A stretch of DNA of 64,000 nucleotides from a virus. Location: IMG/VR virus record IMGVR_UViG_3300028801_000003. One strand, written 5' to 3'. Under the pieces are notes generated by a model, which saw nothing but the letters and a program-made list of their open reading frames with translations, searched no databases and was not told the origin of the DNA. Position numbers and translations under genes: made by a program. Shown one piece after another: positions 1 to 18,536 of the stretch (position 1 is its first letter; the number at the start of each line of letters is the position of its first letter).

Positions 1-3000
1 GAGGGTAATCTGAAGTACGACGATAAGGTGCCGCTGGCTGAGCAGTCCGTGCCGAACGGTAGCTTGCGCGACAGCGTCGAAGCGATCCAGAAGATGCCTG
101 CATGGAAGGCTATCGGCAAAGCACTGGACGACTTGAAGTCGCTGCCGCGCACCGCGGCCAGCCATCTGAAAGAGTCCGCGACGCTGAGCGCACTGGCTAA
201 GGCCTTTGGTACGAGCGAGCCGACGCTGTCGGCGCACACTGGTGATGTGCCCGCGATGATCATGCCTAAAGGTGCAGACGGCAAAGTCATCATCAGCCTG
301 AACAAGAACCTGAAAGGTGCGGCGCGCGTCAGCGCGATGATGCACGAGTTCGGCCACCACATCGTCAACGAGAAATTCGAAGCGGCTACACCCGAACAGA
401 AAGCGGCGATCTTCGCCGGCTATAAGGCGTGGCGCGTAGCGCAGCGCGGAGCGGCCGATAACCTGGAGACGCGCCTGTCCAAGGCGCCGCTCTTCTCAGG
501 GCTGCGTCTTATCGACGATATGCGCGGAGCAAGTGCGAAGACACGCGGTCAGTTGACCGATGCGCAGGCGAAGTACCTGCTCTCGGCGCATGAGTACCTG
601 GCTGACTCCGTGGCGCGTGCGCTGGAACAACACACTGGCGCGCAGACCATCGTGGGCAAGTTCATGCAGAGCGTGGCCAAAGCCACGAAGCTCGCGTATG
701 ATCTGGTGCGTGGAGTCGATCCCCGACTGACGGATTCCCCCGCAGCCGTACGGGATTGGGTCCACAGCCTCTACGAGGCACCTGCCAAACCCGACGCCGA
801 CCACGCTCCCCCAGCCTCGGCGTCGGGGGCGGCCCCACGCTCCGGCAGCTCCACGCCCGACGATCTGAGCGCGGCGCTCAACCCTCGCGATCGTGGCATC
901 TTGTACAGCATCCTGCAGCGTCGCGACATGATGCAGCAGCTGCTAGTGGGTGCGGATCACGACACGGCCGAAGCGTTGGGTAACTCCGCGACGCAGATGC
1001 AGACCGCGATCAACGAAGGCTTTAAGAAATGGGTCGCTGGCGATCTCAACCTGACTGATAAATCACTGCTCGGTCCGTTGACGCGGCTGCGCGACGCCGT
1101 CATGACCGCGACCGGTATCGCCACGAAGAACGAACTGGCCGAGCGCATTTTCCAGGACGCCCAGGTCGGACGCACTGACGCGGCCACCAGCGTCGTGCGT
1201 ACCGTGGAGTCCGAACGGCAACAGGCACTGCGCGACGCCGGCGCCACCACACAGGCCGCGATCCGTCATGCGCTGTTTACGACGGCGGAGTTCGCGCACC
1301 TGAAGGTGGCGCCGGCCGCCGGTAAGTTCTTGGCCTCAATGGACGAGCGGCTACGCGCGACGAACATCCCGGCGGCGCACGTGCTCGCCTCTCTCGTGCA
1401 CCGCCAAACGGGCGAACGCGGCGAAGGTCAGCCGATGCTGCAGGCGCGCGCGCAGAAACGCGCGCAGCTGTGGGAGCGCGCGACCAACATCATCAACTCG
1501 ATCCCGGAGAAAGATCAGCCGGCCGTGCTCGACGCACTGCGCTCACAGACGACGCTCGCCGATCCGGTCATGGAGCAGCACCGGCAGAACGTGCTCGGGT
1601 ACTTCAAGGACATCAAGTCGTACATGGATTCGAAGGGTGTCGTCATGGGTCACATCGAAGACTATTTCCCGGTTTCGATGGACCAGAAGGAAGTGCAGAA
1701 CCGCGCGACCGAGTTCAACGCGATGTTGTCGGACCCGAAGCTCGAAGACGGTATGCGCGATTACTTCAAGTCGAAGGGCTGGGATACGAGCGACATGTCG
1801 CACATGGACATGATCAACAAGATGCGTGAGATGGCCGCGAGCCATCCGGACTACACATTGGGTGGGCGTTCGTTCGCCGATACGGGCGCGGCGCCCGGTG
1901 GCAGCGAATTCAAGACGCGCGTCAGCGAGTTCATTTACAAGCAGAACGATCCAGAGCTCAACAAACAGTTCGCCAGTTTCCAGACCAAGGACCTGGAACA
2001 GCTAATGATCCCCTACGCCTCGCATGCGACGAACGTGGCGGAGTTCACCAACGCGCTGGGTAAGACCAGTGACATGAAGACCTCGACGTTCGATCAGCTC
2101 CTTACCCAGGCGCGCGAACAAGGTGCGACCGACGCACACATCCAGACGATGAAGGACTATGTGGACGCCGCCATGGGCAGCTATGGCACTGGACCGAATC
2201 CGTACTTCGCCAAGGCGATCGGTACGTTCGACAAAATGTTCGGCACCAAACTGGGTGACATCAACTCGGCGCAGTGGCAGAAAGCATCACAGGCGATCAT
2301 CGCCTACCAGAACTTGCGCGTGCTGGGGCTCGGGCTGTTTGGCAACATGATCGACCCGCTGGGCGTGTGGACGCGCAGCTCTTCGATGAAGAATACGTGG
2401 GAAGGGTATAAGGGCGCGTATAAAGCCATGATGTCGAAGAACCCGACGTACTTGTCGGACATGGCGCATTCATTGGGCACCGTCGAGTCGCGTGCCGCGT
2501 CCGAGGCGCTGGCGTATAACTACGGTGCATCGAACGAAGATAACGTCAAGTCGTGGTCGTACCGGATCAACCGCGCGCTGTTCAAGGTCAACGGCATGGA
2601 ATCGATGACACATTTCGCGCGGCTGGCCGCGACCGAAGGGGCGAACAAGTTCTTGCTACAGCACGCGCAGACGCCTGGGCCGCACTCGGCACGTTACCTC
2701 GCCGAGCTCGGTATTAAGCCCGAGGACATCAAGGAAGACCCGACGCACCCAGGCTACGTCCAGCGTAATGCCGCGGTCGATAAAGCGCTCTATCAGTTCG
2801 TCGACGAATCCGTCCTGCGCCCAGTGCCGACCCAGAAACCGGGCTGGCACAGTGATCCGCACTTCGCGATCGCCTCGCAGTACAAAGGTTACCTATATGC
2901 GTTCTATGCCACGATCACCGAGCGCATGATCCACGAGGTGAAGAACGGGAACTTGCAGGGCGTCGCGCCAGTCGCGGGGTATTTGGCGGTGTCGATGGCC

Positions 3001-3327
3001 GCGGAGTTGGCGCGCGAGCTGGTGCAGTTCGGCGGCGCGGGTAATCCGAATCGGCAGAACTGGACCGCGGAGGACTATCTGAAACTGGCCGCGTCGCGGT
3101 CGGGGCTGGCTGGCCCGAAGCTGGACACCGGTTTGGGATCGTTGGAAGATGTGGCCAGGGGTAACGTGCCGTTGTCAGCCGTCGCCGGCCCGTCGATCTC
3201 GCAGGCCCAGCAGCTGGGGCGCACCGTTATCGGCGAGCAGCCGGTCAAGAATACGCTGATCGAGTCGCTGCCGGGGCAGAGTTTGTATCACGGGTACTTC
3301 GAGGATAAGGATCATGGCGGACGATAA
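1..3327 (+). CDS. C-terminal >=1108 aa of a giant virion (internal/ejection-type) protein; the 5' end is outside the window; contains an HExxH zincin-like motif
   Basis: Frame 1 is open from base 1 into the listed ORF 28..3327, with no in-frame stop before 28. The motif MMHEFGHHIV is encoded at about 337-366. It is the last large gene of the + strand structural operon. Confidence 0.8.
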   Translation, partial: EGNLKYDDKVPLAEQSVPNGSLRDSVEAIQKMPAWKAIGKALDDLKSLPRTAASHLKESATLSALAKAFGTSEPTLSAHTGDVPAMIMPKGADGKVIISLNKNLKGAARVSAMMHEFGHHIVNEKFEAATPEQKAAIFAGYKAWRVAQRGAADNLETRLSKAPLFSGLRLIDDMRGASAKTRGQLTDAQAKYLLSAHEYLADSVARALEQHTGAQTIVGKFMQSVAKATKLAYDLVRGVDPRLTDSPAAVRDWVHSLYEAPAKPDADHAPPASASGAAPRSGSSTPDDLSAALNPRDRGILYSILQRRDMMQQLLVGADHDTAEALGNSATQMQTAINEGFKKWVAGDLNLTDKSLLGPLTRLRDAVMTATGIATKNELAERIFQDAQVGRTDAATSVVRTVESERQQALRDAGATTQAAIRHALFTTAEFAHLKVAPAAGKFLASMDERLRATNIPAAHVLASLVHRQTGERGEGQPMLQARAQKRAQLWERATNIINSIPEKDQPAVLDALRSQTTLADPVMEQHRQNVLGYFKDIKSYMDSKGVVMGHIEDYFPVSMDQKEVQNRATEFNAMLSDPKLEDGMRDYFKSKGWDTSDMSHMDMINKMREMAASHPDYTLGGRSFADTGAAPGGSEFKTRVSEFIYKQNDPELNKQFASFQTKDLEQLMIPYASHATNVAEFTNALGKTSDMKTSTFDQLLTQAREQGATDAHIQTMKDYVDAAMGSYGTGPNPYFAKAIGTFDKMFGTKLGDINSAQWQKASQAIIAYQNLRVLGLGLFGNMIDPLGVWTRSSSMKNTWEGYKGAYKAMMSKNPTYLSDMAHSLGTVESRAASEALAYNYGASNEDNVKSWSYRINRALFKVNGMESMTHFARLAATEGANKFLLQHAQTPGPHSARYLAELGIKPEDIKEDPTHPGYVQRNAAVDKALYQFVDESVLRPVPTQKPGWHSDPHFAIASQYKGYLYAFYATITERMIHEVKNGNLQGVAPVAGYLAVSMAAELARELVQFGGAGNPNRQNWTAEDYLKLAASRSGLAGPKLDTGLGSLEDVARGNVPLSAVAGPSISQAQQLGRTVIGEQPVKNTLIESLPGQSLYHGYFEDKDHGGR

Positions 3328-7776: not shown

Positions 7777-8538
7777 TTATCGACGGGCGGCAGGCGCAGC
7801 GGCCCGTGTGGGTTTCTGGTTGCTGGAGACGTAATTGCTCACATCCGGGATCGCTTCGAGCATGGCCGTAGCCTCTTCGCGCAGCTGGAAGTGATCGGCG
7901 TAGTCGCTATTGGCACGCACATTCTCGAAGTTCATCGTGGAGTAACGCGTACCCGGGACCGGCATCGCGGTGATATCCACCACGGCTTTGATCGGCGGGC
8001 CGCCCAATACGCGCTCCACCTGACGAGCGAACCCGTCGAAGAACTTGATGGAGGTGGGTGGCACGGAAATGATGAAAATCTCCGCGTTGTCCAGATCGGC
8101 GGCCTGCTCTTCCAGGATCACAGCCAGTTCGCGGCTGTTCTTGCACGCCTTACCTTTACCTGTGGCTGAGCTACCCCACTGATCGTGTGCGCAGCCATGA
8201 CACATATCGTGCTGTGGCTCTGGGGACTCTGGGCACGGCTGCATGTTGGCCAGCACCTTACCGATCGCGAAACAGCCCGGCGGCAGTGGATTGCCGGCCT
8301 GATACGGATGCGGATACCAGGTGTTCTTCGACACGAAGTCCACGACGATGACACTGATCGTGGTATCGAGCTCAGCACCGTCGGGAGTTGACCAGCGACC
8401 ATTGGTATTGATGGACAGACGCGGACCGGAACCACCTGCTGAGACCTGATCCTTAATCGATTCAGCGGCGAGCTGCTGATCAATCGTGGCCAGGTCAGTC
8501 TTGGCCGGTCGTACTGCGACACTCTTTTCTTTGCTCAT
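7777..8538 (-). CDS. conserved-looking phage protein with a Cys cluster (possible DNA-binding/recombination accessory); function unassigned
   Basis: ORF track. It carries the motif CPESPEPQHDMCHGCAHDQWGSSATGKGKACKNSRELAV. It sits between a Gp157-like gene and the replication genes. Confidence 0.7.
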   Translation of the reverse strand: MSKEKSVAVRPAKTDLATIDQQLAAESIKDQVSAGGSGPRLSINTNGRWSTPDGAELDTTISVIVVDFVSKNTWYPHPYQAGNPLPPGCFAIGKVLANMQPCPESPEPQHDMCHGCAHDQWGSSATGKGKACKNSRELAVILEEQAADLDNAEIFIISVPPTSIKFFDGFARQVERVLGGPPIKAVVDITAMPVPGTRYSTMNFENVRANSDYADHFQLREEATAMLEAIPDVSNYVSSNQKPTRAAAPAARR

Positions 8539-8912: not shown

Positions 8913-9085
8913 TAGACGGCCTTTAACCCATCGCCGAAGAAATGTTCCAGTGCACGATCAATCGTGGTTGGTTCATACTCTCCGGCCGCTTCCAGTGACG
9001 CCGCCAAGGGGTTACGAAGATACGCCTTTTTTGGTGCATCCACGATATTGGCTGTCAGATACCGCAGTACCGATACGGCGCTCAT
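8912..9085 (-). CDS. hypothetical protein (57 aa)
   Basis: The internal ATG of track ORF 8912..9097 overlaps the upstream TGA (ATGA). Confidence 0.5.
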   Translation of the reverse strand: MSAVSVLRYLTANIVDAPKKAYLRNPLAASLEAAGEYEPTTIDRALEHFFGDGLKAV

Positions 9086-9270
9086 AGTATTTTCCACAGG
9101 TGCTTCTCCGTTATTGCCACTTTATCAGGATGCTCCTTTAGGCCAATCGAAGCATCCTTGTACCCCACCTCGTACGCCTTACGCGCAACCGCATTGAGTA
9201 TCTCGTGCAGCTGTTTGCGCGTCAGGTTTTTAAGACTTGTTGTAAAAGCTGTCGACCTTGACGGCGGCAT
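9082..9270 (-). CDS. hypothetical protein (62 aa)
   Basis: ORF track. GAGGAG lies 10 nt upstream. It overlaps the 3' end of the polymerase gene by 41 nt. Confidence 0.5.
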   Translation of the reverse strand: MPPSRSTAFTTSLKNLTRKQLHEILNAVARKAYEVGYKDASIGLKEHPDKVAITEKHLWKIL

Positions 9271-11212
9271 TTAATGGCAGCTCCTCACACCACCACGCGG
9301 GTGTGGACATGATTTCCTTGGTGCGGTTCGCCAGTTCTTCGGCGCGTTTCTTGGCGATGATCATGCCGATTTCGTCGTGCGTCGACATGACGATCCGTGC
9401 ATCGGGGAACTCTTCCGCGATCTGGACCATCTGTTCGCCCAGCAGCACACGGGACAGGAACTGACAGACGTTCTCCACCGCCAGGCCGCCATAGAACTTG
9501 ACCGGACCGCGACGGCCGACATAGATCATGTTGCCTTCGTCATCCTGGTGCATGTTCGGGTAGAACATGTACCCACCATGGGGACCATGGATGTAGGCGC
9601 CACGCGTACCCATCTCGAAGATCAGCGGGCCGTCCTCGATCTCGCGGTTACCGATAAAAGCCAGCCGCGCGGTGCGTTCGGTGATCTTCCAGTTATCGCG
9701 GATCATGTTGTTCGTATTACGCCAGCGAATCAGGTTTTCGTTGGTCTCTTCCAGCGACTGCACCATGGGTGGACCAAACTGCCCGACGCGGAAGGTGTAA
9801 TTGATCTTACGGTGACCTGCGCCGTACCCCGCACTAAGTTCGAAGACCTTACCGACGAAACGCTCGTCCGGGTCTTCCTCTGCATCGATCGGCCGACCGT
9901 AGATCGCCGCGGCCGCGAAGCAGTAGATGTCCGGACCTTCCTTCCTGTCATAGCGGCGGAACACTTCGAGCTTGTCCAGCTGTTTGGCCTTCCATGCGTT
10001 CATCCGCGCTTCGATCTGGCTGGCGTCGGCGATGACCATCAGCGTACCGTGTGGTGCTACCAGCGCCTTACGTATTTCTGCGCCCGGCCCTCGACGCGGA
10101 GGGTTCTGCCAGTTGACGGCGTCGCCGCCGCCCCAGCGCTGAGTACGCGCCGCGCAGTAATTGAGATAGATCGGCGTCGGGTAATCCACACGTTTAAGTA
10201 GAGTCTCGGAGCGAGTCTCCACGATCGACGATTTGGACATAAGGCGTGCTTCAACAAGATCGCGGACGTGTTCAGTCGGATGCTCAAGCAGTACCTTGAA
10301 GTCAAGGTCATTCTTGGCGAAAGCGTATGCCTCCTCACCAGTGCGACCGCTGATCTTGGTAGGTGGCTCGACGCCTGCCGCTTCCATGTGGACCGCGAAT
10401 TTCTGGGCACTACCCATCTCTTTGAGGAGGAATTGGTTGCGTGATAATGCGGGTTTGACATAGGTCTTCCCTTTCGACGTGTACAGGTCGTAGCGTAGCT
10501 GCTGGTGTTCAAGCAGGGTATCGAGTGTCGACTTCAGCGGCACGGCGAGGCGGTCCAGGATGCCTTTCTTGCGCTCCAGTTCAGACTCATACAGCCGCTG
10601 CAGACGCGCACCATCGAGCAGCATCGTGGGCTCGGCGTACATCCGCACGGTGATATCGATCAGCTTGAGCTCGTTCTCCGGGACGATCCCTTTAAGTGCC
10701 CCGTAGATCGCGATGACGTCCTCCACGTCGTCACCGTTATAGAGAGCCATATGCTCCAGCTCATCTGGCGTGAAGTCAGCGAGGCGCTTACCCTTGACAT
10801 TGACAAGGGCCGCCGCATTCTTTTTGCCCTCCCGGCCCATTTTCTTCGAGACCTGATCCAGGCTCGCTGATTCGTCCACACCGAACACGAAACGCGCCAT
10901 AGCCATCGTGTCCAGCCAGAAACACGGGTACACACCAAAATGATGGGTAAGGATCAGCCCGTCGAAATTCGTGTGATGCGCGAGGCAGCCGGTAATCGAC
11001 CAGTCGATCGTGCGCAGACCATTATAGATCGCGTCGTAGCCGATCCACACCTGTGGGCGTGCGTTGGTACCTACGAGCTTGAGCGCCATGGTCTGCGCTT
11101 CGAACTCAGGACTACGGATGTATTCCGTGGTGGCCATCTTCGACAGACTGTGGCTGTCGGAGTAAAACGTCTCGAAATCAAGTGCAGCAATCTGTTTGAA
11201 TGGTACGGACAC
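9230..11212 (-). CDS. family A DNA polymerase with 3'-5' exonuclease domain
   Basis: The motifs seen are ALDFETFY (Exo I), IADASQIEARM (motif A), GKVFELSAGYGAG (motif B) and VMSTHDEIG (motif C). Confidence 0.92.
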   Translation of the reverse strand: MSVPFKQIAALDFETFYSDSHSLSKMATTEYIRSPEFEAQTMALKLVGTNARPQVWIGYDAIYNGLRTIDWSITGCLAHHTNFDGLILTHHFGVYPCFWLDTMAMARFVFGVDESASLDQVSKKMGREGKKNAAALVNVKGKRLADFTPDELEHMALYNGDDVEDVIAIYGALKGIVPENELKLIDITVRMYAEPTMLLDGARLQRLYESELERKKGILDRLAVPLKSTLDTLLEHQQLRYDLYTSKGKTYVKPALSRNQFLLKEMGSAQKFAVHMEAAGVEPPTKISGRTGEEAYAFAKNDLDFKVLLEHPTEHVRDLVEARLMSKSSIVETRSETLLKRVDYPTPIYLNYCAARTQRWGGGDAVNWQNPPRRGPGAEIRKALVAPHGTLMVIADASQIEARMNAWKAKQLDKLEVFRRYDRKEGPDIYCFAAAAIYGRPIDAEEDPDERFVGKVFELSAGYGAGHRKINYTFRVGQFGPPMVQSLEETNENLIRWRNTNNMIRDNWKITERTARLAFIGNREIEDGPLIFEMGTRGAYIHGPHGGYMFYPNMHQDDEGNMIYVGRRGPVKFYGGLAVENVCQFLSRVLLGEQMVQIAEEFPDARIVMSTHDEIGMIIAKKRAEELANRTKEIMSTPAWWCEELPLNAAVKVDSFYNKS

Positions 11213-11252
11213 GATGCGCTCCCCAGCGAATGAGGAGCTATCGTACTACGTT

Positions 11253-11876
11253 TTAGAACGGTGTGGGAGGGTCATCGGTGGCGGTCACCGACGGACCACC
11301 ATAACCCCAGCCTAAAGCATTTGCCGGGATAGTAGTTGCGGCCATTTGTGCTTGCAAAGCCTGCGTCGCCGCGAGCACGCGCTGCTGCTCTGCTGATAGC
11401 ATAGCCCGGGCTCGTGCAGGCGCCGCCTGAGCTATTGCCTGTTGAAACGCTTCGCGCGATTGTTCATAGACGCTCGTCGCATCTGGCACGGCCGGTACCG
11501 TTGAAAAACGAGTGCCGGCATGAATTTCCATGCGTTCTTCACCACTTTCCCGCGACCACGACCGTGGTCGCGGTACAGCTTCGGGCCGCGGCGGCGCTGT
11601 GGGCAGCACGAGCGGTTCCATCTTCGGGTGCTCGATGTATTCCAGCGTATGGCCCTCCTCCGGGGTATCGTTGAAGATGTAATATTTCTCCGCCCGTGCA
11701 TTTTTCTTGGCGCAAATGAAGCGTGCATAGGGCATAGCCTCGCCATAGCGCGGCGTCATATGCTGCATGAAGACTGCGTACAGTTGGTCTTCAGTCATGG
11801 GCTCGTAGGACGGGATAATACTGACGACCCAGTACCGGTTCCCATCATTTTTTAGTAAAAGTTCTGTTCGTGCCAT
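11253..11876 (-). CDS. hypothetical protein (207 aa) with a Pro-rich centre and Gln/Ala-rich C-terminus
   Basis: This is the internal ATG (MARTELLLKNDG...) of track ORF 11253..11915, preceded by GGAGGAGCC. Confidence 0.7.
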   Translation of the reverse strand: MARTELLLKNDGNRYWVVSIIPSYEPMTEDQLYAVFMQHMTPRYGEAMPYARFICAKKNARAEKYYIFNDTPEEGHTLEYIEHPKMEPLVLPTAPPRPEAVPRPRSWSRESGEERMEIHAGTRFSTVPAVPDATSVYEQSREAFQQAIAQAAPARARAMLSAEQQRVLAATQALQAQMAATTIPANALGWGYGGPSVTATDDPPTPF

Positions 11877-11887
11877 GGCTCCTCCAC

Positions 11888-11922
11888 AAAAAAAAAGGGT
11901 GCCATGCCAATGCACGACACCC
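11888..11922 (-). terminator. rho-independent terminator (minus strand)
   Basis: On the minus strand the stem is GGGTGTC ... GGCACCC, with one G-U pair and a 12-nt loop. It is followed by T9, immediately upstream of the next RBS. Confidence 0.7.
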
Positions 11923-12050
11923 CTAAAAGGACCAGCAGGCCGGATTAAGCTACCGGCCGTTGGCGCTGCGGCGACATCTAGGGGAAGGAGTAAGACCCCG
12001 CCGCGCCCGACCGCGAGTCGGGACGCTGCTGGGTAAACTAAACCCTACCC

Positions 12051-12497
12051 TTAGACCACCGAGACGCTGACGACGTCGCGACCGCGCACGCCGATGGCTA
12101 CCACGATGCCGCGGCTACCGGCAGTACGACGCGCCTCGGAGGACGTCGCGAACGACGGCTTCTCGAAGGTACGGCCGTTGAACACGGCATAACGCACGTA
12201 CGTCGCGCGCTGCTCCGAAGCGCCGATCAGTTTCATCGTGCCGCGGCGCTCGTTGAACTCAACCGCGAACGAACCGAAGTGATTGCCCTTGCGGGTGCTG
12301 GCGTTGCTATGTGCGGAGTGAGCCGAGCTGTACGCCTTCGAACCGATGCAGAACGGCGCATCCTTGGCGTTGTACAGATTGAAACCCAGGGTTTTGCTGG
12401 TGCTGGCCATGGACTGCAGCTCGGACGAATCGATGGCCAAGTGGGACACATCGGTGTGACGGCCGTCAGCGGTGAGGATGGCATTGATACGGGACAT
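12051..12497 (-). CDS. hypothetical protein (148 aa)
   Basis: This is the internal ATG (MSRINAILTADG...) of track ORF 12051..12530, preceded by AAGGAG. A terminator follows it. Confidence 0.7.
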   Translation of the reverse strand: MSRINAILTADGRHTDVSHLAIDSSELQSMASTSKTLGFNLYNAKDAPFCIGSKAYSSAHSAHSNASTRKGNHFGSFAVEFNERRGTMKLIGASEQRATYVRYAVFNGRTFEKPSFATSSEARRTAGSRGIVVAIGVRGRDVVSVSVV

Positions 12498-12556
12498 GGA
12501 GTTACTCCTTGGGATTGATGATGCCCACATGCGGGCGATGGAACGATGAACGCAGA

Positions 12557-13714
12557 TCAGTGAACGGTATCTGCGGTTTTGGTAGCCGACGCGTCAGCTA
12601 CCGGGACAAGCTCCGTTGTGGGAGGCGTTTCCACCTTCGGCGCTTCCACCACGACGACCGGCGGAACAAACGGTTTGGCATCTTTCAGGAACACGCGTAG
12701 ATCGTGTTCGGTTTGCAGGCAGTCCGCTACGATGGTCCAATCCATGTCGCTCTTCATGTTCGGACCGGTCTTGCGCTGCTGCGCGATATTGGTCGCTTCA
12801 TACACGTAGCGATTATCACTGGCCAGATCATTGGCGAGATCGGTCGGCAGGAATGCCTTCATCGACTCGGACCAGACCAGCTCCGTATTGTCCACGATGA
12901 TGTGCATCGGGCAGAACGTCTTCAAGTGCAGCGACCACTTTGATTCAAACAAATCCGAACCGCCGAAGGTACGCTTGATCACTTGTTCCAGGTTCGTCGG
13001 CGCTTTCGTTCCAACCGGCGTGCCAACCGTTTGGCTCGTCGCGTCTCGCTCCTTGTAGGTTCGGGAATCGGGGTCCCATACTTTGTTTCGGTAGTCGTAG
13101 CTCCCGCCGCCAGCATAGCCGCCGTAACCTCCGAAGCTGTCCTGCCCGCGATAAGCGTTCCCCGTCGTGACGTTGAAATACCCCCGAAAGCTGGTATTTG
13201 AATACCAGCAGCCCTCCGACCAAAGGCCTTGTTTTTCGTTACAGATAACGTACTCGCCGCCATCGAACAGGAACGCGACCTTCTCGGTTCCGGCGAAGGA
13301 CTCGATAACCGGACGCAGCGACTTGATCTGTTCGAGGTTCAGCGTCTTGACCATGTCTTCGGCGAACTCGCGTGAATCGCTTCGCTCCGCATCGCCTTTG
13401 CAATGCACATAGTTCAGACACGGGCCGTTATGCATCAACACGCCGTTGTCAATCGCAAACGGATGGCAATTGGCCTCGTCGGTCTTGCCCTTGGTTGCGA
13501 TACGAAAATGCACGAACGCCATGGTCTCGGTGGTGACGTCCTTCGAATACGACTTGAAGAACTTGTCGAAGGCGAAGAACCCTTTCTTGGTAACGACCTT
13601 CCCGTTTTCACCGATGTACGCGTAGCCCGCACCGTGCGGATTGGCCTTGAACGAATTGGCCAGATGTTCCTTGCTGACCCAGTGGCCAGCGGGTTTTACG
13701 ATAGCAATACACAT
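12557..13714 (-). CDS. Ntn-type (class II) glutamine amidotransferase-like protein with an uncharacterised C-terminal half
   Basis: This is the internal ATG of track ORF 12557..13849, preceded by AAGGAAG. The protein starts Met-Cys (MCIAIVKP). It also shows HFRIATKG, NCHPF and LMHNG, as in PurF/YafJ-type Ntn amidotransferases. Confidence 0.75.
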   Translation of the reverse strand: MCIAIVKPAGHWVSKEHLANSFKANPHGAGYAYIGENGKVVTKKGFFAFDKFFKSYSKDVTTETMAFVHFRIATKGKTDEANCHPFAIDNGVLMHNGPCLNYVHCKGDAERSDSREFAEDMVKTLNLEQIKSLRPVIESFAGTEKVAFLFDGGEYVICNEKQGLWSEGCWYSNTSFRGYFNVTTGNAYRGQDSFGGYGGYAGGGSYDYRNKVWDPDSRTYKERDATSQTVGTPVGTKAPTNLEQVIKRTFGGSDLFESKWSLHLKTFCPMHIIVDNTELVWSESMKAFLPTDLANDLASDNRYVYEATNIAQQRKTGPNMKSDMDWTIVADCLQTEHDLRVFLKDAKPFVPPVVVVEAPKVETPPTTELVPVADASATKTADTVH

Positions 13715-13724
13715 ATCAACTTCC

Positions 13725-15506
13725 TTATGCGGTGAGCTCAGCCAGCGGTCGCGCCTCGACCATTGACTTTGCAGTGGGTACGCCAATGCGCGAAGTGAGA
13801 TTCGGATATTTTGCGCTGTTGTCCGCGAGCCAGCTGCGGAATTGAGCACTGATGTTCGGGTCTAGCACATCCAGATCGTTGTCCAGCTGTGATGTAAACT
13901 CCATACCGCCGACGCAGTATTCGACACACGCCATGAAACCTTCATAGCGAATATTCGAGCCAAAAATACGCGTCTCCAGTACCTGGTTACCGCTGCGAAT
14001 ATGCACCGGCTGATACTTACCACGCGATGCGAACTGGCTGAGCGCGGTGCCATTGAACGACGTACCGCCAGTGATCGACTTGAATTTCGCTGGAGTGATC
14101 AATTCATAGCCGCCCGAGTGTGGCGATTTGTTCATGGTCATGAACTTGTCGAGCGACGCCAGTTCTTCCATGCCCGGTGGTGTACGGTCTTCGCTGTCAC
14201 CCGCGCCGTAGATTACCTTACGACCCGAAATGAACTTCGAGATCGCGGCGGCGTTATGCACGAACGCGACAAACCGCAGGATGTGATTGGGCGCGCGGTC
14301 ACTGACATCCATGTTCACATGGATACCTGCCAGACGACGGTTCTTCCAACCCTCCGCACCGCCAGCGACCAGTTTCTCCAGCAGCCAGCGCCAATGCGCA
14401 TCCGGTGCCTGATAACCTTCGAGCAGCGGTAACGGTTCGGAAATGATTTCGCAGCCGGACGTAACACCGGACAGTGACGAATCCGATTCGATGATGAACG
14501 GACGGTTCCCGGTGAACCGACCATCGGGTTCGACATACCGCGACAAGAATTTCTGGAAATGCGTGTTGGTCTTGAAACCGCACTCCAGTTCAACGCCGAC
14601 GTGCCGCGCGTAACCGCTGCGTTTTGGAGAGTGGCGCCAACCGCGCTGGACGCCATGATAGCCACCGATGCGGCCATTCGTGTTGCCGCGCACCCAGCGA
14701 CCATCCTCTTCGTAGATCGCGCCGCGTGCTTCGTTCGGACGACGCCAGACCAGGTCACCACCTTCGATCTCGACCCATTCGACATTCGCTGCCCACACCA
14801 GTGAGCCAGTGATCGAATCGCGGCGAACCGCGTCGGTAGTCAGGAGTGAAGGGTGTATCTGCTCCGTGACGCCCTCTTCGTTAACAACGACACGTGCCAT
14901 GCGGGTGTTCGGTGCTTCGAGCTTCGTACGTTTGCAGGTTACGAAACTGTCTGTTTCGTAGAATGCTGCCGTGTCGCCTTCATCCAGGCGCCAGAACCGG
15001 AACTTGAATGTGCGCGCCAGTTTGTCGACCTGTTCGGCCTTGGCATTGCCGATGATATAATTCAGATATGAATCGTTACCGCTGCGAATATGGTAAAACA
15101 GTTTGTCGTATGCCGTCTTGATCTTGATCGATTTGCGCGACCAATAAGCGATGTGCTTCGCATAACGTGCGAGGTTACGTCCCGGATGCAAACCGACGAA
15201 CATGCCCTGATTCTTTAGTGTTGCGAGCAGGAAGCTCTGTGCATCGGCTTTCATAGTGGCCGGCGCATCATGCAGATGCACCTTAGCCATTAGCGTATTG
15301 GTCAGGTTTGCCCGTGCATCTTCGCGCAGTTGTACTTGCGCGCGTGCTTCGCTACCCAGTGCGATCACGTCGTCTTTGGTGTAGCCCATATCCTTCAGGC
15401 GTTCATTGAATCGCTTCGTCCATTCTTCAATGGACGTGTACCCATCGCAGGGGAGTTTGGCAGTCAACGCTGCCGCCATCTCCAGTAATTTTTTTACATG
15501 TTTCAT
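13725..15506 (-). CDS. amidoligase (Amidoligase_2 / glutamine-synthetase-like COOH-NH2 ligase) with an ~300-aa unknown N-terminal region
   Basis: ORF track. The C-terminal half shows HVGVELECGF, IIESDSSLSGVTSGCEIISEPL, AGIHVNMD and VLETRIFGSN, in the order expected for the family. Confidence 0.75.
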   Translation of the reverse strand: MKHVKKLLEMAAALTAKLPCDGYTSIEEWTKRFNERLKDMGYTKDDVIALGSEARAQVQLREDARANLTNTLMAKVHLHDAPATMKADAQSFLLATLKNQGMFVGLHPGRNLARYAKHIAYWSRKSIKIKTAYDKLFYHIRSGNDSYLNYIIGNAKAEQVDKLARTFKFRFWRLDEGDTAAFYETDSFVTCKRTKLEAPNTRMARVVVNEEGVTEQIHPSLLTTDAVRRDSITGSLVWAANVEWVEIEGGDLVWRRPNEARGAIYEEDGRWVRGNTNGRIGGYHGVQRGWRHSPKRSGYARHVGVELECGFKTNTHFQKFLSRYVEPDGRFTGNRPFIIESDSSLSGVTSGCEIISEPLPLLEGYQAPDAHWRWLLEKLVAGGAEGWKNRRLAGIHVNMDVSDRAPNHILRFVAFVHNAAAISKFISGRKVIYGAGDSEDRTPPGMEELASLDKFMTMNKSPHSGGYELITPAKFKSITGGTSFNGTALSQFASRGKYQPVHIRSGNQVLETRIFGSNIRYEGFMACVEYCVGGMEFTSQLDNDLDVLDPNISAQFRSWLADNSAKYPNLTSRIGVPTAKSMVEARPLAELTA

Positions 15507-16810
15507 CGTGCTCTCCTTCGTTGTGAGGCCACCACAAGTTCTAGAAAATCGTTCATGTTGACTGTCTTCTCGTCGAGGCGGTTATAGACCATCTCTTCGA
15601 CCGTGTTTGTCGCTTGAATCAGAATGGTGTTAGTGACTTTATCCTGCGCTCCTCGATAGATACGATGGATGGCCTGTTTCAAAAGGTCAGCCTCATAGAA
15701 CGGTGAAAGGATGATGCACGCCTCGCCCCGGGTCAGGGTCAAGCCGTGAGCACCGGTGCGCGGATGCAGGAGAATGGTCTGGTACTTACCCTCTTGGAAT
15801 TCATCAACGATTCGATCGCGGTCGCGTTGTGCTACGAGACCATCGATAATCGCGAACCGTATCCCTCGCGACGTCAAGAGCTTGCTCATTTCTTCGCGCT
15901 GGTGAAACCAGTTGAAGAAGACGACCGAGTGCTGATACTGATCGATGATGTCCGCACCGAGTTCGTATCGCTGTGTATCAACCAGAGCATACGACCGTTC
16001 TTCGCCGCCGTCATACACGGCACCGGAGGCGATCTGTAGAAGCTTTTGCCGCAGGCTGGATGCATGAACTGCATTCACCCGTTCTTCGTTGATGATCGCC
16101 ACCATGTTCGTGGCGAATTCTTCGTAAATCTTTTGTGTTTTCTTATTGAGTTCGAACGGATATCGCGCTACGTGATTCGGCGGTACGTGCGTCATCACAT
16201 CTTCGAATGCGTGCCGGATCGAGATATCGCTGATGAGACTGAAGACGGCGTCCGACGCGCCAGGTTTGTCGTGCCACTTCAGCATGTTCGCGCTCGGGCC
16301 GACCTGTTCAGCCTGCTGTACGGACCCACGGAAATGGTAGTAGGACGGTCCCAGACGTTTGCCGCCGTCCAGGATCAGCATCTGATGCCACAGCTCCGTG
16401 ACTGAATTAGGGTTGGGCGTGCCCGTCAGGAGCAATCGGCGGCGGAACTGTTTGCTCAATTGCCGCATCGCCTTGGACCGTTGCGATGTGGCATGTTTGA
16501 ATGTGGTCGATTCGTCGACGATCAGTTTGTCGAACCCGCGCATGAGCTTGGGGTTCTTAACCAGCGCCGTGACTGCGTCTGTATTGGTGATGACGATCTG
16601 TGTATCGATCGCAAACGCCGCTTCCCGGTTCTTTGCATCGGCGATGGAATAGCTTAACCACGGAAAATAGTCATCGACCTCGTGGCCCCACGCACTACGC
16701 ATGAGGGTCTTGGGACATACCACGAGCGTACGGCCATCGCTGCCCAGGTTGTAGTCATCGTTGATGATCAGAAGATGCGCCAGCGTCTTCCCCGTCCCAG
16801 GAGCGGACAT
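15503..16810 (-). CDS. SNF2-family helicase/ATPase (annotated from the first ATG; conserved sequence continues upstream, see findings)
   Basis: The motifs seen are GTGKT (I), VDESTTFK (II), LLLTGTPNPNS (III), HPRTGAHGLTLT (V) and QAIHRIYRGAQ (VI). The frame is open up to 16948. Confidence 0.85.
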   Translation of the reverse strand: MSAPGTGKTLAHLLIINDDYNLGSDGRTLVVCPKTLMRSAWGHEVDDYFPWLSYSIADAKNREAAFAIDTQIVITNTDAVTALVKNPKLMRGFDKLIVDESTTFKHATSQRSKAMRQLSKQFRRRLLLTGTPNPNSVTELWHQMLILDGGKRLGPSYYHFRGSVQQAEQVGPSANMLKWHDKPGASDAVFSLISDISIRHAFEDVMTHVPPNHVARYPFELNKKTQKIYEEFATNMVAIINEERVNAVHASSLRQKLLQIASGAVYDGGEERSYALVDTQRYELGADIIDQYQHSVVFFNWFHQREEMSKLLTSRGIRFAIIDGLVAQRDRDRIVDEFQEGKYQTILLHPRTGAHGLTLTRGEACIILSPFYEADLLKQAIHRIYRGAQDKVTNTILIQATNTVEEMVYNRLDEKTVNMNDFLELVVASQRRRAR

Positions 16811-16889
16811 GTCATATACGATGTCTGACTCACTCCCGAACTGGCGAGTGAACGACTGATGCAGCCATGGTTCCAGCTTTTTGGCGATG

Positions 16890-17456
16890 CTAGCCCTTCG
16901 TCGCGGCGGTCTCGTCCTTCCACGAGAAGTCGCGTTTCTTGGTATGGGTCAGGATGTAAGTCTTCACTTCGACAATCATCATGTTATGTGCGGTCTCCTC
17001 CATGTGCTTGTCGTACTCGGCGCGATCGGCGGCACGCAGGACGGTAACGCTGCCATCACCATGCAGTGCTTCGATGATCGCCATCGCTGGTGTATGCGTA
17101 CCTTGGCGAACGGCTTCACGCTGCGCCGCAATCACTGTCGACGTCGTCGCCGAGACTTTGTGGCTCTTGATCTTGGCGATCTTCGCCGGATACTTTTTAT
17201 TGCCGTAGATGCGCCGGTCTTTCACGATGTGATGTCCGCGGTGCATGCACGTTACCAGGCTGTCCGTGTCGGCGTTGCCATCGACGCGGAAAAGCAGTTT
17301 GCCTTTCCAGCGATAGTTCATGTTCGAAACGAGCGACTGTACCTGCTTATAACTGAGCTCGTTCTTCTCAATCAGCAGGACGTCGTTCTGTTTCAGTGCC
17401 TTGAGCTTCGTGGGCCAAGGACTGTCGTAATTGATGCGAGGCTTTACGTTTGCCAT
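16890..17456 (-). CDS. hypothetical protein (188 aa)
   Basis: This is the internal ATG (MANVKPRINYDS...) of track ORF 16890..17684. It overlaps the upstream TAA (TAATG). Confidence 0.65.
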   Translation of the reverse strand: MANVKPRINYDSPWPTKLKALKQNDVLLIEKNELSYKQVQSLVSNMNYRWKGKLLFRVDGNADTDSLVTCMHRGHHIVKDRRIYGNKKYPAKIAKIKSHKVSATTSTVIAAQREAVRQGTHTPAMAIIEALHGDGSVTVLRAADRAEYDKHMEETAHNMMIVEVKTYILTHTKKRDFSWKDETAATKG

Positions 17457-17674
17457 TACCACTCCGCCCAACCGGGATAAAAGATTTCCTTCCCGCAGGA
17501 AACGTTTGCGCACACGTATGGTTTGTTCTTGGGACCAGCGACCTCGATGATATCTTGATGTTCGCTGCAGTGCGGGCACTCCACCATGACGCCGTGCATG
17601 GTGTCGTCGACGAAAACAGCGCACTGTTTCTTGCGGCCGAAGTCGAGTGTCGTTCTCATGTATACGGTCTCCAT
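17456..17674 (-). CDS. small zinc-ribbon protein (72 aa)
   Basis: ORF track. It carries CPHC ... CANVSC Cys pairs. Confidence 0.6.
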   Translation of the reverse strand: METVYMRTTLDFGRKKQCAVFVDDTMHGVMVECPHCSEHQDIIEVAGPKNKPYVCANVSCGKEIFYPGWAEW

Positions 17675-17838
17675 TCAATATCACGGATACTTACTACGTG
17701 GCCGCCTGTGTTATCGCCGTTCCAGCTACCCATACGCACCAAATCGCTATCAAGGTACGTGCAATAACCGAAATGCCACGAAACTTCTCCGTAAACGCGC
17801 CAGTGGACCATGCTGCCAGGAGGTGGGCGCCGATTCAT
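17656..17838 (-). CDS. hypothetical protein (60 aa)
   Basis: The internal ATG of track ORF 17656..18012 overlaps the TGA of the exonuclease gene (ATGA), with AGGAG upstream. The C-terminus is IEWRPYT. Confidence 0.5.
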   Translation of the reverse strand: MNRRPPPGSMVHWRVYGEVSWHFGYCTYLDSDLVRMGSWNGDNTGGHVVSIRDIEWRPYT

Positions 17839-18536
17839 TTTGTTACTCCTACAGGGCAAACCCCAGTCCCCTGGGGTGAATAGGGACACCATCGACACGT
17901 GAGTTTCGATGGCGAAGGGCGGAAGTACCTGTCTTCCATCATCTTCTGAACTTCGTTGTCGAGCTTGACCTGTGCCTTCTCTAACTTCTCGGGCAGAAAA
18001 GTGATCTGCCACGTGTCCGGGAGATCGAGGTACCAGAGCTCAGCCTCGTAGCTCTCATAGCCAGGATCGTGGAGCATCGCTGTGATCGAATAGAGCTCAC
18101 ACTGACCATAGTGCTTGAGTTCGTTGCCGTATTTTTTGCCGGTCTTGTTGTCGATGGTGAGGTTGATTTCACCAGGAACCACGACCTTGATATCCGGAAT
18201 CACCACGAGCCAGCGATCTTTCTCTTCGCACGGTTTCCAGTTGTGGTCCAGATAGAATTTGCGTTCCACTTCCACTGTACCCAGACCGTCGCGGCGGATG
18301 TTACGCACGTCGATCAATGGACCGTCGAACTTGACCAGATCATTTGGGAATGGCGCATCATCAGCGAGGATGAAATCCTCAGCCAGTTTATGGCGCTGTG
18401 TGCCGCGCGTATTGGCCGCTTTCTCGTCACGAGGTGGTTCAGGACTGTGGTCGATGTACTTGAGCTTCGCCCAATAGTGACAGGACCGATAAACAGTCAG
18501 TAGCGAGTGTGACCATTTTTCGATGTGGTCGCTCAC
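17835..18536 (-). CDS. Cas4/RecB-like PD-(D/E)xK exonuclease with a Cys cluster
   Basis: The motifs seen are VIPDIKVVV ... IDNKTGK (D, ExK-like) and QCELY (QxxxY). There is one N-terminal Cys (YRSCHYW) plus the C-terminal CRWCPYSPQGTGVC. Confidence 0.75.
   Translation of the reverse strand: MSDHIEKWSHSLLTVYRSCHYWAKLKYIDHSPEPPRDEKAANTRGTQRHKLAEDFILADDAPFPNDLVKFDGPLIDVRNIRRDGLGTVEVERKFYLDHNWKPCEEKDRWLVVIPDIKVVVPGEINLTIDNKTGKKYGNELKHYGQCELYSITAMLHDPGYESYEAELWYLDLPDTWQITFLPEKLEKAQVKLDNEVQKMMEDRYFRPSPSKLTCRWCPYSPQGTGVCPVGVTK

What the first reader, a model, noticed from the sequence alone, without database searches (positions are those of the whole stretch)
12557..15506. Phage amidoligase plus Ntn (class II) amidotransferase-like gene pair embedded in the replication module
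Gene 13725-15506 has the Amidoligase_2 signature in its C-terminal half (GVELECGF, ESDSSL..CEIISEPL, GIHVNMD, LETRIFGS). This half is fused to an ~300-aa unrecognised N-terminal region. The adjacent gene, 12557-13714, starts Met-Cys and carries HFRIATKG, NCHPF and LMHNG, fitting an Ntn glutamine-amidotransferase fold. It also has an unrecognised ~185-aa C-terminal half. Co-occurrence of these two families in phages was predicted computationally, in comparative-genomics work on amidoligases, to make a peptide-like metabolite or a peptide tag. As far as I know the substrate and the role in infection are unresolved. Here the pair sits between an SNF2 helicase and the DNA polymerase. A nucleic-acid or replication-protein-directed modification is therefore one possibility, but that is inference only.
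Basis: partly seen in the sequence, partly recalled or inferred. Interest (0 to 1): 0.7.

Follow-up and report, generated by a model that had tools for sequence, protein, structure and literature searches.

The report
Phage amidoligase plus Ntn-amidohydrolase gene pair
Two adjacent early genes of an uncultured 65-kb phage encode an ATP-dependent amide-bond ligase and a cysteine glutamine/gamma-glutamyl amidohydrolase; this pairing has been known in phages since 2009, its substrate is still unknown, and here it appears as a divergent, largely unannotated subfamily in which the two genes are always adjacent.

Summary
On the minus strand, X (13725-15506, 593 aa) has a glutamine-synthetase-like carboxylate-amine ligase domain at residues ~299-575. 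Y (12557-13714, 385 aa, starts Met-Cys) has a class-II Ntn glutamine amidotransferase domain at residues 1-178. Both Pfam hits fall below the curated cut-offs. Predicted structures and invariant catalytic residues support both fold assignments. The remaining parts match no known family: X has a basic helical domain and a degenerate zinc-ribbon-like domain; Y has a Gly/Tyr-rich linker, a ~105-aa beta-rich domain and a disordered tail.

X belongs to a distinct "X-type" branch of about 1100 clusters, labelled "unknown function" in PHROGs. In 15 of 15 distinct loci, an X-type gene is followed on the same strand by a Y-type gene starting Met-Cys. This holds in three unrelated genomic contexts, so the pair is an autonomous module.

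No experimental function was found in the literature searched. My favoured mechanism, by a thin margin, is a split glutamine-dependent amidoligase. A gamma-glutamyl ligase/hydrolase pair is almost as likely. An unexplained extra is X's invariant C-terminal alanine. Verdict: a new variant of a known kind, of moderate interest.

The parts
13725..15506 (-). Gene X, 593 aa: X-type amidoligase (whole gene including stop codon)
   Evidence: ORF. Only 17 full-length homologues among 5.8 billion proteins. The family profile finds about 1100 representative clusters. AF2 model pLDDT 87.4.
15012..15506 (-). X residues 1-165: all-helical basic domain (pI 9.7) with no known family
   Evidence: Secondary structure. 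No Pfam hit even at E = 10. pI. Found only in the closest two tiers of homologues.
14613..15011 (-). X residues 166-298: beta-rich domain, a degenerate zinc-ribbon/LIM-like module ending in the invariant GYHxxxRxW motif
   Evidence: Tier-2 homologues keep five invariant Cys here (CxxC...C...C...C). The window protein keeps only C191. One structural neighbour is annotated 'LIM domain containing protein'. Y and H of the motif are invariant in 78 diverse sequences.
13782..14612 (-). X residues 299-575: glutamine-synthetase-like carboxylate-amine ligase (Amidoligase_2-like) catalytic domain
   Evidence: Pfam Amidoligase_2 18.5 bits, below the cut-off of 22. Foldseek hits. Invariant E306, E308, E340, D342, S344, E353, H396, N398, D400, E511, R513. 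The same acidic/His/Arg set is invariant in 78 distant relatives.
13728..13781 (-). X residues 576-593: flexible tail ARPLAELTA ending in an invariant C-terminal alanine
   Evidence: pLDDT 50-55. The last residue is Ala in 17/17 and 15/15 close homologues, and in 46/128 distant ones against a 7.6% background (p ~1e-19). It is encoded by GCA, GCC, GCT or GCG in different loci.
12557..13714 (-). Gene Y, 385 aa: Ntn (class II) glutamine/gamma-glutamyl amidohydrolase with C-terminal extension (whole gene including stop codon)
   Evidence: ORF and Met-Cys start. 104 homologues, about 30 of them full length. AF2 model pLDDT 81.
13181..13714 (-). Y residues 1-178: Ntn class-II GATase domain with nucleophile Cys2
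   Evidence: GATase_6 23.2 bits, below the cut-off of 27. Foldseek matches GlmS (6.5e-7), EgtC (1.7e-4) and PurF. Invariant C2, R71, T74, H84, N96, G97, S112, D113. The direct alignment to GlmS has an offset of +2, which places R71, N96 and G97 on GlmS Arg73, Asn98 and Gly99.
12983..13180 (-). Y residues 179-244: disordered Gly/Tyr/Ser-rich low-complexity linker
   Evidence: pLDDT 32-56. Sequence GGYGGYAGGGSYDY. Only 20% identity, but the same composition in homologues.
12665..12982 (-). Y residues 245-350: conserved beta-rich C-terminal domain with no known family
   Evidence: pLDDT ~90. Invariant W281 and conserved WS/YVY/DW motifs. No credible Pfam hit even at E = 10; the only match was Neogenin_C at E = 0.08, 13.3 bits against a cut-off of 25. 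Present only where X carries its N-terminal domains.
12560..12664 (-). Y residues 351-385: disordered Ala/Pro/Thr-rich acidic tail ending ..TVH
   Evidence: pLDDT below 50. 34 of 104 homologues end in His.
12051..12497 (-). Gene Z, 148 aa: small basic protein (pI 10.2) co-transcribed after Y; lineage-specific companion of unknown function
   Evidence: Ribosome-binding site and ORF. Conserved in L004, L005, L006 and L014 but absent from L012/L020, L013, L023 and L025. No family hit.
11895..11924 (-). Intrinsic-terminator-like hairpin (13-bp stem followed by a T7 run) downstream of Z. It probably ends the SNF2-X-Y-Z transcription unit.
   Evidence: It lies between the Z stop (12051) and the start of the next gene (11876).
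15503..16810 (-). SNF2-family helicase immediately upstream (context). Its stop codon overlaps the X start codon.
   Evidence: SNF2-rel_dom 88.6 bits and Helicase_C 49.3 bits. Overlap shown.
9230..11212 (-). Family A DNA polymerase downstream (context)
   Evidence: DNA_pol_A 51.4 bits. 33% identity to the polymerases of Pseudomonas phages KPP25 and phiR18.

Best explanation
X and Y form a self-contained two-enzyme amide-bond module that is expressed with the replication genes.

Shown at the level of fold and residues: X is an ATP- and Mg-dependent carboxylate-amine ligase of the glutamine-synthetase fold, which works through an acyl-phosphate intermediate. Y is a cysteine N-terminal-nucleophile amidohydrolase whose pocket is built for free glutamine or a gamma-glutamyl amide.

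Inferred: the two act as a split class-II amidotransferase. Y hydrolyses glutamine and passes the ammonia to X. X uses it to convert an ATP-activated carboxylate into a carboxamide. The lineage-specific extra domains (X N-terminal domains and the Y C-terminal domain) would hold the two proteins together.

The carboxylate substrate is unknown. It could be a metabolite, a peptide or cell-wall peptide, or a protein carboxylate.
For: The folds and catalytic residues are intact in both proteins. Y keeps the equivalents of GlmS Arg73 and Asn98-Gly99, and a conserved SD(S/T) Asp. In 15 of 15 distinct loci, X is followed by Y on the same strand with gaps of -10 to +81 nt, down to ~25% X identity. This holds in at least three unrelated contexts: after SNF2, after the primase, and among non-replication early genes. 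In the more distant contexts no third gene travels with the pair. The two enzymes must therefore be sufficient together. Amidotransfer is the only scheme in which a glutaminase plus an ATP-dependent ligase gives a net product. The Y C-terminal domain occurs only with X proteins that carry the N-terminal domains, as expected for docking domains. The genes are tightly coupled for translation and lie in one transcription unit.
Against: No characterised class-II (Ntn) glutaminase works as a separate subunit. From established knowledge, the known two-subunit amidotransferases use class-I glutaminases. Every characterised glutamine-synthetase-fold ligase activates a glutamate gamma-carboxylate, and stand-alone Ntn relatives such as EgtC are gamma-glutamyl hydrolases. 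As I recall it, the Pfam description of Amidoligase_2 calls the partner a 'thiol peptidase'. No prediction of the X-Y complex could be run, so neither an interface nor an ammonia tunnel has been shown. The same pocket residues suit glutamine and gamma-glutamyl amides equally well. The substrate is unknown.
Confidence: 0.35

Rival explanations
1. Gamma-glutamyl writer/eraser or carrier pair, following the logic of EgtA/EgtC, PuuA/PuuD or PafA/Dop. X ligates the gamma-carboxylate of glutamate to an amine on a metabolite, peptide or protein lysine. Y, acting as a thiol peptidase, hydrolyses that gamma-glutamyl amide or processes its precursor.
For: The best structural matches of X are PafA/Dop, YbdK (GCS2 family) and glutamate-cysteine ligase. 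Y matches the stand-alone gamma-glutamyl hydrolase EgtC as well as GlmS. In Xanthomonas phage DES1 and Stenotrophomonas phage StenR_269, Y-type Ntn genes sit in clusters with gamma-glutamyl cyclotransferase, ATP-grasp and GS-like ligases. That is the gene content of a gamma-glutamyl peptide pathway. EgtA plus EgtC is a characterised precedent for a GS-fold ligase working with a class-II Ntn hydrolase (established knowledge).
Against: With only two genes, a ligase and a hydrolase acting on the same bond would form an ATP-wasting futile cycle. The precedents all have an intervening enzyme or a tag protein, and none is conserved next to X-Y. Z is absent in half the lineages and ends VSVSVV rather than Gln or Glu.
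Confidence: 0.3
2. DNA or nucleotide hypermodification, or covalent modification of a replication protein. The pair would amidate or aminoacylate a base side chain or a replisome component.
For: The pair is a stable member of the Primase-PDDEXK-SNF2-X-Y-PolA block in at least 10 divergent lineages. It lies upstream of primase/helicase/polymerase genes in OM43 phage MEP401. The N-terminal domain of X and protein Z are basic. Lee et al. report amidoligase and amidotransferase genes of unknown role inside thymidine-hypermodification clusters (PMC8989533).
Against: No dUMP hydroxymethylase, 5-HMUDK, aGPT-Pplase, DpdA or other base-modification gene was detected among the neighbouring ORFs. The same module occurs away from replication genes in Tesla/Marvin, L017 and L018. 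Early genes cluster with replication genes in phages in any case.
Confidence: 0.1
3. Modification of cell-envelope peptides, for example amidation or extension of peptidoglycan stem-peptide carboxylates. This could block superinfection or tune lysis, as proposed for phiEco32-type clusters.
For: This proposal is attributed to Iyer et al. 2009 in PMC10580990. MurT/GatD and AsnB-type enzymes are precedents for glutamine-dependent amidation of peptidoglycan (established knowledge).
Against: Neither X nor Y shows any evident signal peptide, membrane segment or link to a lysis cassette. Expression is with the replication genes. The hosts of the phages that carry the module have very different envelopes (Mycobacterium, OM43 and others). 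This is a proposal about the substrate and could coexist with either mechanism above.
Confidence: 0.1
4. The similarity is due to chance, or the genes are decaying and non-functional.
For: Both Pfam scores fall below the gathering thresholds. X matches no PHROG family and no GenBank phage.
Against: The models are confident and give specific fold matches. Catalytic residues are invariant across 16 to 78 homologues. Linkage holds in 15 of 15 loci.
Confidence: 0.01

Closest known systems
Phage Amidoligase_2 (PF12224) plus class-II GATase gene associations described by Iyer, Abhiman, Burroughs and Aravind in 2009 (phiEco32, LUZ24/tf/UFV-P2, mycobacteriophage Marvin, OM43 phages MEP401/402)
   Same: The two folds and their adjacency in early regions of phage genomes are the same, and the function is likewise unresolved. 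MEP401 gp05/gp06 and Tesla gp108/gp109 belong to the same X-type/Y-type subfamilies.
   Different: The LUZ24, DES1 and StenR_269 type uses a different ('classical') amidoligase branch that the X-type profile does not detect. That branch comes with ATP-grasp ligases, gamma-glutamyl cyclotransferase and a long AsnB-like GATase. Here the module is just two genes. X carries a helical domain and a degenerate zinc-ribbon domain, Y carries an extra C-terminal domain, and both score below the Pfam thresholds.
EgtA/EgtC of ergothioneine biosynthesis (GCS2-type gamma-glutamyl ligase plus stand-alone class-II Ntn gamma-glutamyl hydrolase)
   Same: It combines a GS-fold ligase with a stand-alone Cys-Ntn class-II enzyme in one pathway. 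Y matches EgtC structures (E = 1.7e-4) and X matches YbdK of the GCS2 family.
   Different: No EgtB- or EgtD-like intermediate enzymes are present. Sequence identity is only 10-15%. The context is a phage, and the substrate is unknown.
PafA/Dop pupylation enzymes
   Same: They are the top PDB structural neighbours of X (probability 0.97-0.99). They follow a ligase-plus-amidase logic on a glutamate/glutamine gamma-group.
   Different: Dop is a paralogue of PafA, not an Ntn enzyme. No Pup-like tag ending GGQ or GGE is encoded nearby. TM-scores are low, at 0.2-0.37.
Class-II glutamine amidotransferases (GlmS, PurF, AsnB)
   Same: Y has the N-terminal Cys nucleophile, the Arg73 and Asn98-Gly99 equivalents and the fold.
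   Different: In those enzymes the Ntn domain is fused to its synthase domain. Here the putative synthase (X) is a separate polypeptide of a fold not known to partner with class-II glutaminases.

Membership tests
Amidoligase_2 (PF12224) / GS-like carboxylate-amine ligase superfamily | Score at or above the Pfam gathering threshold | tested here: not met
   18.5 bits against a cut-off of 22. Only 10 of 78 X-type relatives reach E <= 1e-3.
Amidoligase_2 (PF12224) / GS-like carboxylate-amine ligase superfamily | Glutamine-synthetase-like catalytic fold | tested here: met
   AF2 pLDDT 87. Foldseek against the PDB gives Dop/PafA, YbdK, GCL and GS at probability 0.94-0.99. Foldseek against BFVD gives phage 'Amidoligase enzyme' proteins at E = 3.8e-13.
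Amidoligase_2 (PF12224) / GS-like carboxylate-amine ligase superfamily | Conserved acidic, His and Arg residues for metal and ATP binding (ExE, ExDxS, GxE, GxH, ExR) | tested here: met
   E306, E308, E340, D342, S344, E353, H396, E511 and R513 are invariant. The same set is invariant in 78 distant relatives. Equivalence to the GS metal ligands is inferred, not superposed.
Amidoligase_2 (PF12224) / GS-like carboxylate-amine ligase superfamily | ATP-dependent amide-bond formation | not testable with these tools
   This needs an enzyme assay.
Amidoligase_2 (PF12224) / GS-like carboxylate-amine ligase superfamily | Conserved neighbourhood with a GAT-like Ntn enzyme | tested here: met
   15 of 15 distinct loci.
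Class-II (Ntn) glutamine amidotransferase domain | Score at or above the Pfam gathering threshold (GATase_6 or GATase_4) | tested here: not met
   23.2 against 27, and 13.9 against 23. Several homologues do carry precomputed PF13522 or PF13230 hits.
Class-II (Ntn) glutamine amidotransferase domain | Catalytic Cys directly after the initiator Met | tested here: met
   MC start in all 23 aligned homologues and in all 15 loci.
Class-II (Ntn) glutamine amidotransferase domain | Ntn alpha-beta-beta-alpha fold | tested here: met
   Foldseek gives the GlmS glutaminase domain at E = 6.5e-7, plus EgtC and PurF.
Class-II (Ntn) glutamine amidotransferase domain | Glutamine-pocket residues (Arg73, Asn98-Gly99, Asp123 in GlmS numbering) | tested here: met
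   R71, N96 and G97 align at an offset of +2 to GlmS and are invariant. D113 as the equivalent of Asp123 is inferred from the invariant SD(S/T) motif and was not aligned.
Class-II (Ntn) glutamine amidotransferase domain | Covalently fused synthase domain with an ammonia channel | tested here: not met
   The C-terminal half of Y is a linker plus a ~105-aa domain with no known family. Whether X supplies the synthase function in trans could not be tested.
Thymidine-hypermodification gene cluster (Lee et al., PMC8989533) | Presence of dUMP hydroxymethylase or TET/JBP together with 5-HMUDK and aGPT-Pplase | tested here: not met
   No such Pfam or NCBIfam hit in 16 early-region ORFs. Small ORFs were not all scanned.
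Pup-like protein-tagging system | Small disordered tag protein ending in Gln or Glu encoded with the ligase | tested here: not met
   The only conserved small neighbour, Z, ends VSVSVV and is missing in half the lineages.

The most novel reading that the evidence does not exclude
The X-Y module may be a new kind of phage conjugation or amidation system that acts on a macromolecular carboxylate rather than on a metabolite. One version concerns the alanine alpha-carboxylate at the end of X's own flexible tail, which is invariant in close relatives. The ssrA-like ..LAA/..AVA endings of many relatives make this version attractive. That carboxylate could be the substrate or the regulator of the ligase. 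Glutamine-dependent C-terminal amidation could, for example, mask a ClpXP-type degron. The module would then be tied to the replisome in this clade.
Probability: 0.08. Interest if true: 0.85.

Novelty: new variant of a known kind. Interest (0 to 1): 0.45.

Why it matters
The pairing of amidoligase and GATase genes in phages has been an orphan prediction since 2009. The genes are annotated in many phage genomes, including therapy candidates, and are often called nitrogen 'auxiliary metabolic genes' without any biochemistry behind the label. This locus defines a minimal form of the system with only two genes that are always adjacent. That makes it the simplest version to reconstitute. It also links about 1100 protein clusters that PHROGs labels 'unknown function' to a definite enzyme chemistry. 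If the substrate proves to be a protein, a nucleic acid or a cell-wall carboxylate, it would reveal a new route of host takeover.

Tried and rejected
- **GenBank phage searches with X.** blastn and tblastn of X against GenBank phages found no match.
- **Sequence searches against the PDB.** Single-sequence searches and profile searches gave nothing significant for X and only marginal class-II GATase hits for Y.
- **Profile-profile comparison.** hhalign of the X-type profile against the bona fide amidoligase of StenR_269 aligned the right KY..lEvRiF motif, but at 1.3% probability, which is uninformative.
- **Family scans of the accessory domains.** Pfam scans at E = 10 of the X N-terminal domains gave nothing, and the Y C-terminal domain gave only one negligible match. 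NCBIfam and PADLOC scans of the full-length proteins gave no hit for X or Z and nothing beyond the class-II GATase N-terminal domain for Y.
- **Search for base-modification genes.** A Pfam scan of ten further early ORFs found no nucleotide-metabolism or base-modification gene.
- **Search for prophage relatives.** A scan of one genome from each of 185,579 species found none, so the host could not be inferred.
- **Wider locus search.** The search for related loci with the broad 78-sequence alignment failed because no stretch was conserved enough.
- **Natural Ntn-amidoligase fusion.** I considered that Tesla gp108 might be such a fusion. It is not: gp108 is the X-type ligase and gp109 is the separate Ntn protein.
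- **Z as a Pup-like tag.** I rejected this because of its C-terminus and its patchy distribution.
- **Terminal Ala as a by-product of Y's ribosome-binding site.** I rejected this because four different Ala codons are used and the gaps between the genes vary.
- **Not possible here.** There was also no separate fold search of the accessory domains.


Full report
**Observation.** The two genes lie on the minus strand. X is 13725-15506 (593 aa). Y is 12557-13714 (385 aa); its true start is the Met-Cys at 13714, not the upstream GTG of the longer mechanical ORF. Gene calls on identical metagenome contigs agree with these boundaries. The X start codon overlaps the stop codon of the SNF2 helicase gene (ATGA) and follows a GAAGGAG ribosome-binding site. 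Y starts 10 nt after the X stop codon, behind AAGGAAG. A third gene, Z (12051-12497, 148 aa), follows with its own ribosome-binding site. A hairpin with a 13-bp stem and a T7 run at 11924-11895 comes next. SNF2-X-Y-Z therefore looks like one transcription unit. A 207-aa gene and the family A DNA polymerase (9230-11212) lie downstream of it.

**Family assignment.** Amidoligase_2 scores 18.5 bits against a cut-off of 22, and GATase_6 scores 23.2 against 27. X hits no PHROG family. The best PHROG for Y is labelled 'unknown function'. X has no DNA or tblastn match in 50,697 GenBank phage records. Sequence searches against the PDB were marginal. I therefore used predicted structures.

- **X.** The model was built from 16 homologues and has pLDDT 87.4. 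It shows helices at residues 1-165, a beta-rich region at 169-290 and an alpha/beta domain at 300-575.
  - Its PDB neighbours are all carboxylate-amine ligases of the glutamine-synthetase fold: Dop/PafA, YbdK, plant glutamate-cysteine ligase and glutamine synthetases. Probabilities are 0.94-0.99 and E is about 2e-3; TM-scores are low because the query has several domains.
  - Against viral models the top hits are phage 'Amidoligase enzyme' proteins (E = 3.8e-13). The hits also include the amidoligase of Pseudomonas phage tf and Mycobacterium phage Tesla gp108.
- **Y.** The model was built from 23 homologues and has pLDDT 81. It matches the GlmS glutaminase domain (E = 6.5e-7), EgtC and PurF.

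**Catalytic residues.**
- X keeps E306, E308, E340, D342, S344, E353, H396, N398, D400, E511 and R513 in all close homologues. The corresponding ExE, ExDxS, GxE, GxH and ExR residues are invariant in 78 distant relatives.
- Y keeps C2, R71, T74, N96, G97 and D113 in all 23 aligned homologues. A direct alignment to GlmS has an offset of +2, which puts R71, N96 and G97 on Arg73, Asn98 and Gly99.

Both proteins therefore look catalytically competent. The observation and the fold-level reading are confirmed.

**The parts with no known family.**
- X residues 1-165 form a basic helical domain (pI 9.7).
- X residues 166-298 are a degenerate zinc-ribbon or LIM-like module.
  - The next tier of homologues keeps five invariant cysteines there, followed by an acidic run and an invariant GYHxxxRxW motif. 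The window protein keeps only C191.
  - One structural neighbour is annotated 'LIM domain containing'.
- Y residues 179-244 are a disordered Gly/Tyr-rich linker. Residues 245-350 form a confident beta-rich domain. Residues 351-385 are a disordered Ala/Pro-rich tail ending TVH.
- None of these regions gives a credible Pfam hit even at E = 10.
- They are conserved, though less than the catalytic domains: 30-37% identity against 56-60%.

**Distribution and linkage.**
- Only 17 proteins among 5.8 billion are full-length relatives of X.
- A profile search of 1.84 billion cluster representatives finds about 1100 at E <= 1e-3. Most of them align from the zinc-ribbon region onward.
- Only 10 of 78 sampled representatives reach Amidoligase_2 at E <= 1e-3. 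Cultured members fall in PHROGs 16683 and 22302, both labelled 'unknown function'.
- The broad X-type profile recognises MEP401 gp05 (E = 2e-36) and Tesla gp108 (E = 4e-37). It does not recognise the classical amidoligases of DES1 and StenR_269. X-type is therefore a distinct branch.
- In all 15 distinct loci that carry an X-type gene, a Y-type gene starting Met-Cys follows on the same strand, with gaps of -10 to +81 nt.
- Within this phage clade, the order Primase-PDDEXK-SNF2-X-Y-(Z)-PolA persists in seven other fetched lineages (L004, L005, L006, L014, L020, L023, L025), down to about 31% identity. One further lineage has Primase-X-Y-PDDEXK-SNF2-PolA, so the pair moved as a unit.
- In OM43 phage MEP401 the pair lies upstream of an unrelated primase, helicase and polymerase. 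In Tesla and Marvin it sits at the right genome end among small genes. L017 and L018 show other contexts.
- Z accompanies the pair in only five lineages.
- The pair is therefore an autonomous two-gene module. Its place in the replication block is a trait of this clade, not of the module.

**Literature.**
- PMC10580990 reports amidoligase and GATase genes in MEP401/402 and in more than 30 related genomes. It cites Iyer et al. 2009 for proposals of cell-wall modification, and Mageeney et al. 2012 (phage Marvin) for secondary-metabolite synthesis, and states that the function remains to be explored.
- LUZ24-like phages carry amidoligase, GATase and ATP-grasp genes (PMC3890496).
- PMC8989533 notes amidoligase and amidotransferase genes of unknown role inside thymidine-hypermodification clusters.
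- An eLife paper treats such genes as nitrogen auxiliary metabolic genes, without enzymology.
- I found no experimental substrate. The Iyer paper itself is not held.

**Mechanism.** The fold, the intact active sites and the obligatory pairing are shown. Everything beyond that is inference.

- *Split glutamine-dependent amidoligase (confidence about 0.35).* I favour this narrowly. Y would make ammonia from glutamine and X would amidate an ATP-activated carboxylate.
  - It is the only scheme in which these two enzymes alone give a net product.
  - It also explains the strict adjacency and the accessory domains that occur together.
- *Gamma-glutamyl ligase plus hydrolase (about 0.30).* This is nearly as likely.
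  - It follows the logic of EgtA/EgtC or PafA/Dop, and it fits the known chemistry of GS-fold ligases better.
  - It also fits the gamma-glutamyl-cycle gene content of the DES1 and StenR_269 clusters.
  - However, it needs a third component that is not conserved next to the pair.
- *DNA or replisome modification (about 0.10).* This has only positional support. No base-modification genes were found.
- *Cell-wall peptides.* These remain a possible substrate under either of the first two mechanisms.

**Unexplained feature.**
- X ends in alanine in 17 of 17 and 15 of 15 close homologues. It does so in 46 of 128 distant ones, against a 7.6% background (p ~1e-19).
- The alanine is encoded by all four Ala codons and sits at the end of a low-confidence, flexible tail.
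- Many relatives end ..LAA, ..AAA or ..AVA, which resembles an ssrA-type degron. This resemblance is a lead only.
- It could instead be a docking motif, a pseudo-substrate or a true substrate.
- Y ends in histidine in 34 of 104 homologues.

**Verdict.** The finding is real and correctly identified at the fold level. It is a divergent, poorly annotated two-gene variant of an association already described in phages, and its substrate remains unknown. I rate it of moderate interest. It is a good minimal system for finally assigning a function to this association.

Noticed in passing
window 13728-13781 (X residues 576-593): X ends in an invariant C-terminal alanine on a flexible tail. This holds in 32 of 32 close homologues and in 36% of distant ones against a 7.6% background. 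All four Ala codons are used. Many relatives end ..LAA, ..AAA or ..AVA, which resembles an ssrA-type degron.
   Followed up: partly
window 12560-13180 (Y residues 179-385): Y has a Gly/Tyr/Ser-rich low-complexity linker (GGYGGYAGGGSYDY). Many shorter Y-type homologues, and Tesla gp108, have Tyr/Gly-rich C-termini. Y's own disordered tail ends in a conserved ..TVH.
   Followed up: partly
window 12051-12497 and 11895-11924: Z is a small basic protein (pI 10.2) with no family hit, conserved after Y in five lineages only. It is followed by a strong terminator-like hairpin.
   Followed up: partly
window 9000-18000: No sigma-70-like promoter matches were found, against 5.7 +/- 2.4 expected from shuffles. 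The replication block may be one long operon, or it may use non-sigma-70 promoters.
   Followed up: no
window 7777-8538: A 253-aa Cys/His-rich protein (phrog_27714, unknown function) is found downstream of DNA polymerase A in most related lineages where the contig extends that far.
   Followed up: partly
L004 4554-5882; L006 1-1710: Relatives of this phage encode a TROVE/Ro60-like protein (with vWA) and an AAA ATPase in the same early block. The window phage has neither. L006 also has a ThyX gene at 16838-17653.
   Followed up: no
window 28-3327: A 1099-aa ORF on the plus strand matches 'virion structural protein' PHROGs (phrog_30152, E = 2e-43).
   Followed up: no
whole window: The phage is far from cultured phages: its best polymerase match is 33% identity, to Pseudomonas phages KPP25 and phiR18. 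It has no tRNA genes and no Rfam hits. Proteins identical to X occur on many ~64.7-65.2-kb metagenome contigs, so the window covers nearly a complete genome that has been sampled repeatedly.
   Followed up: partly
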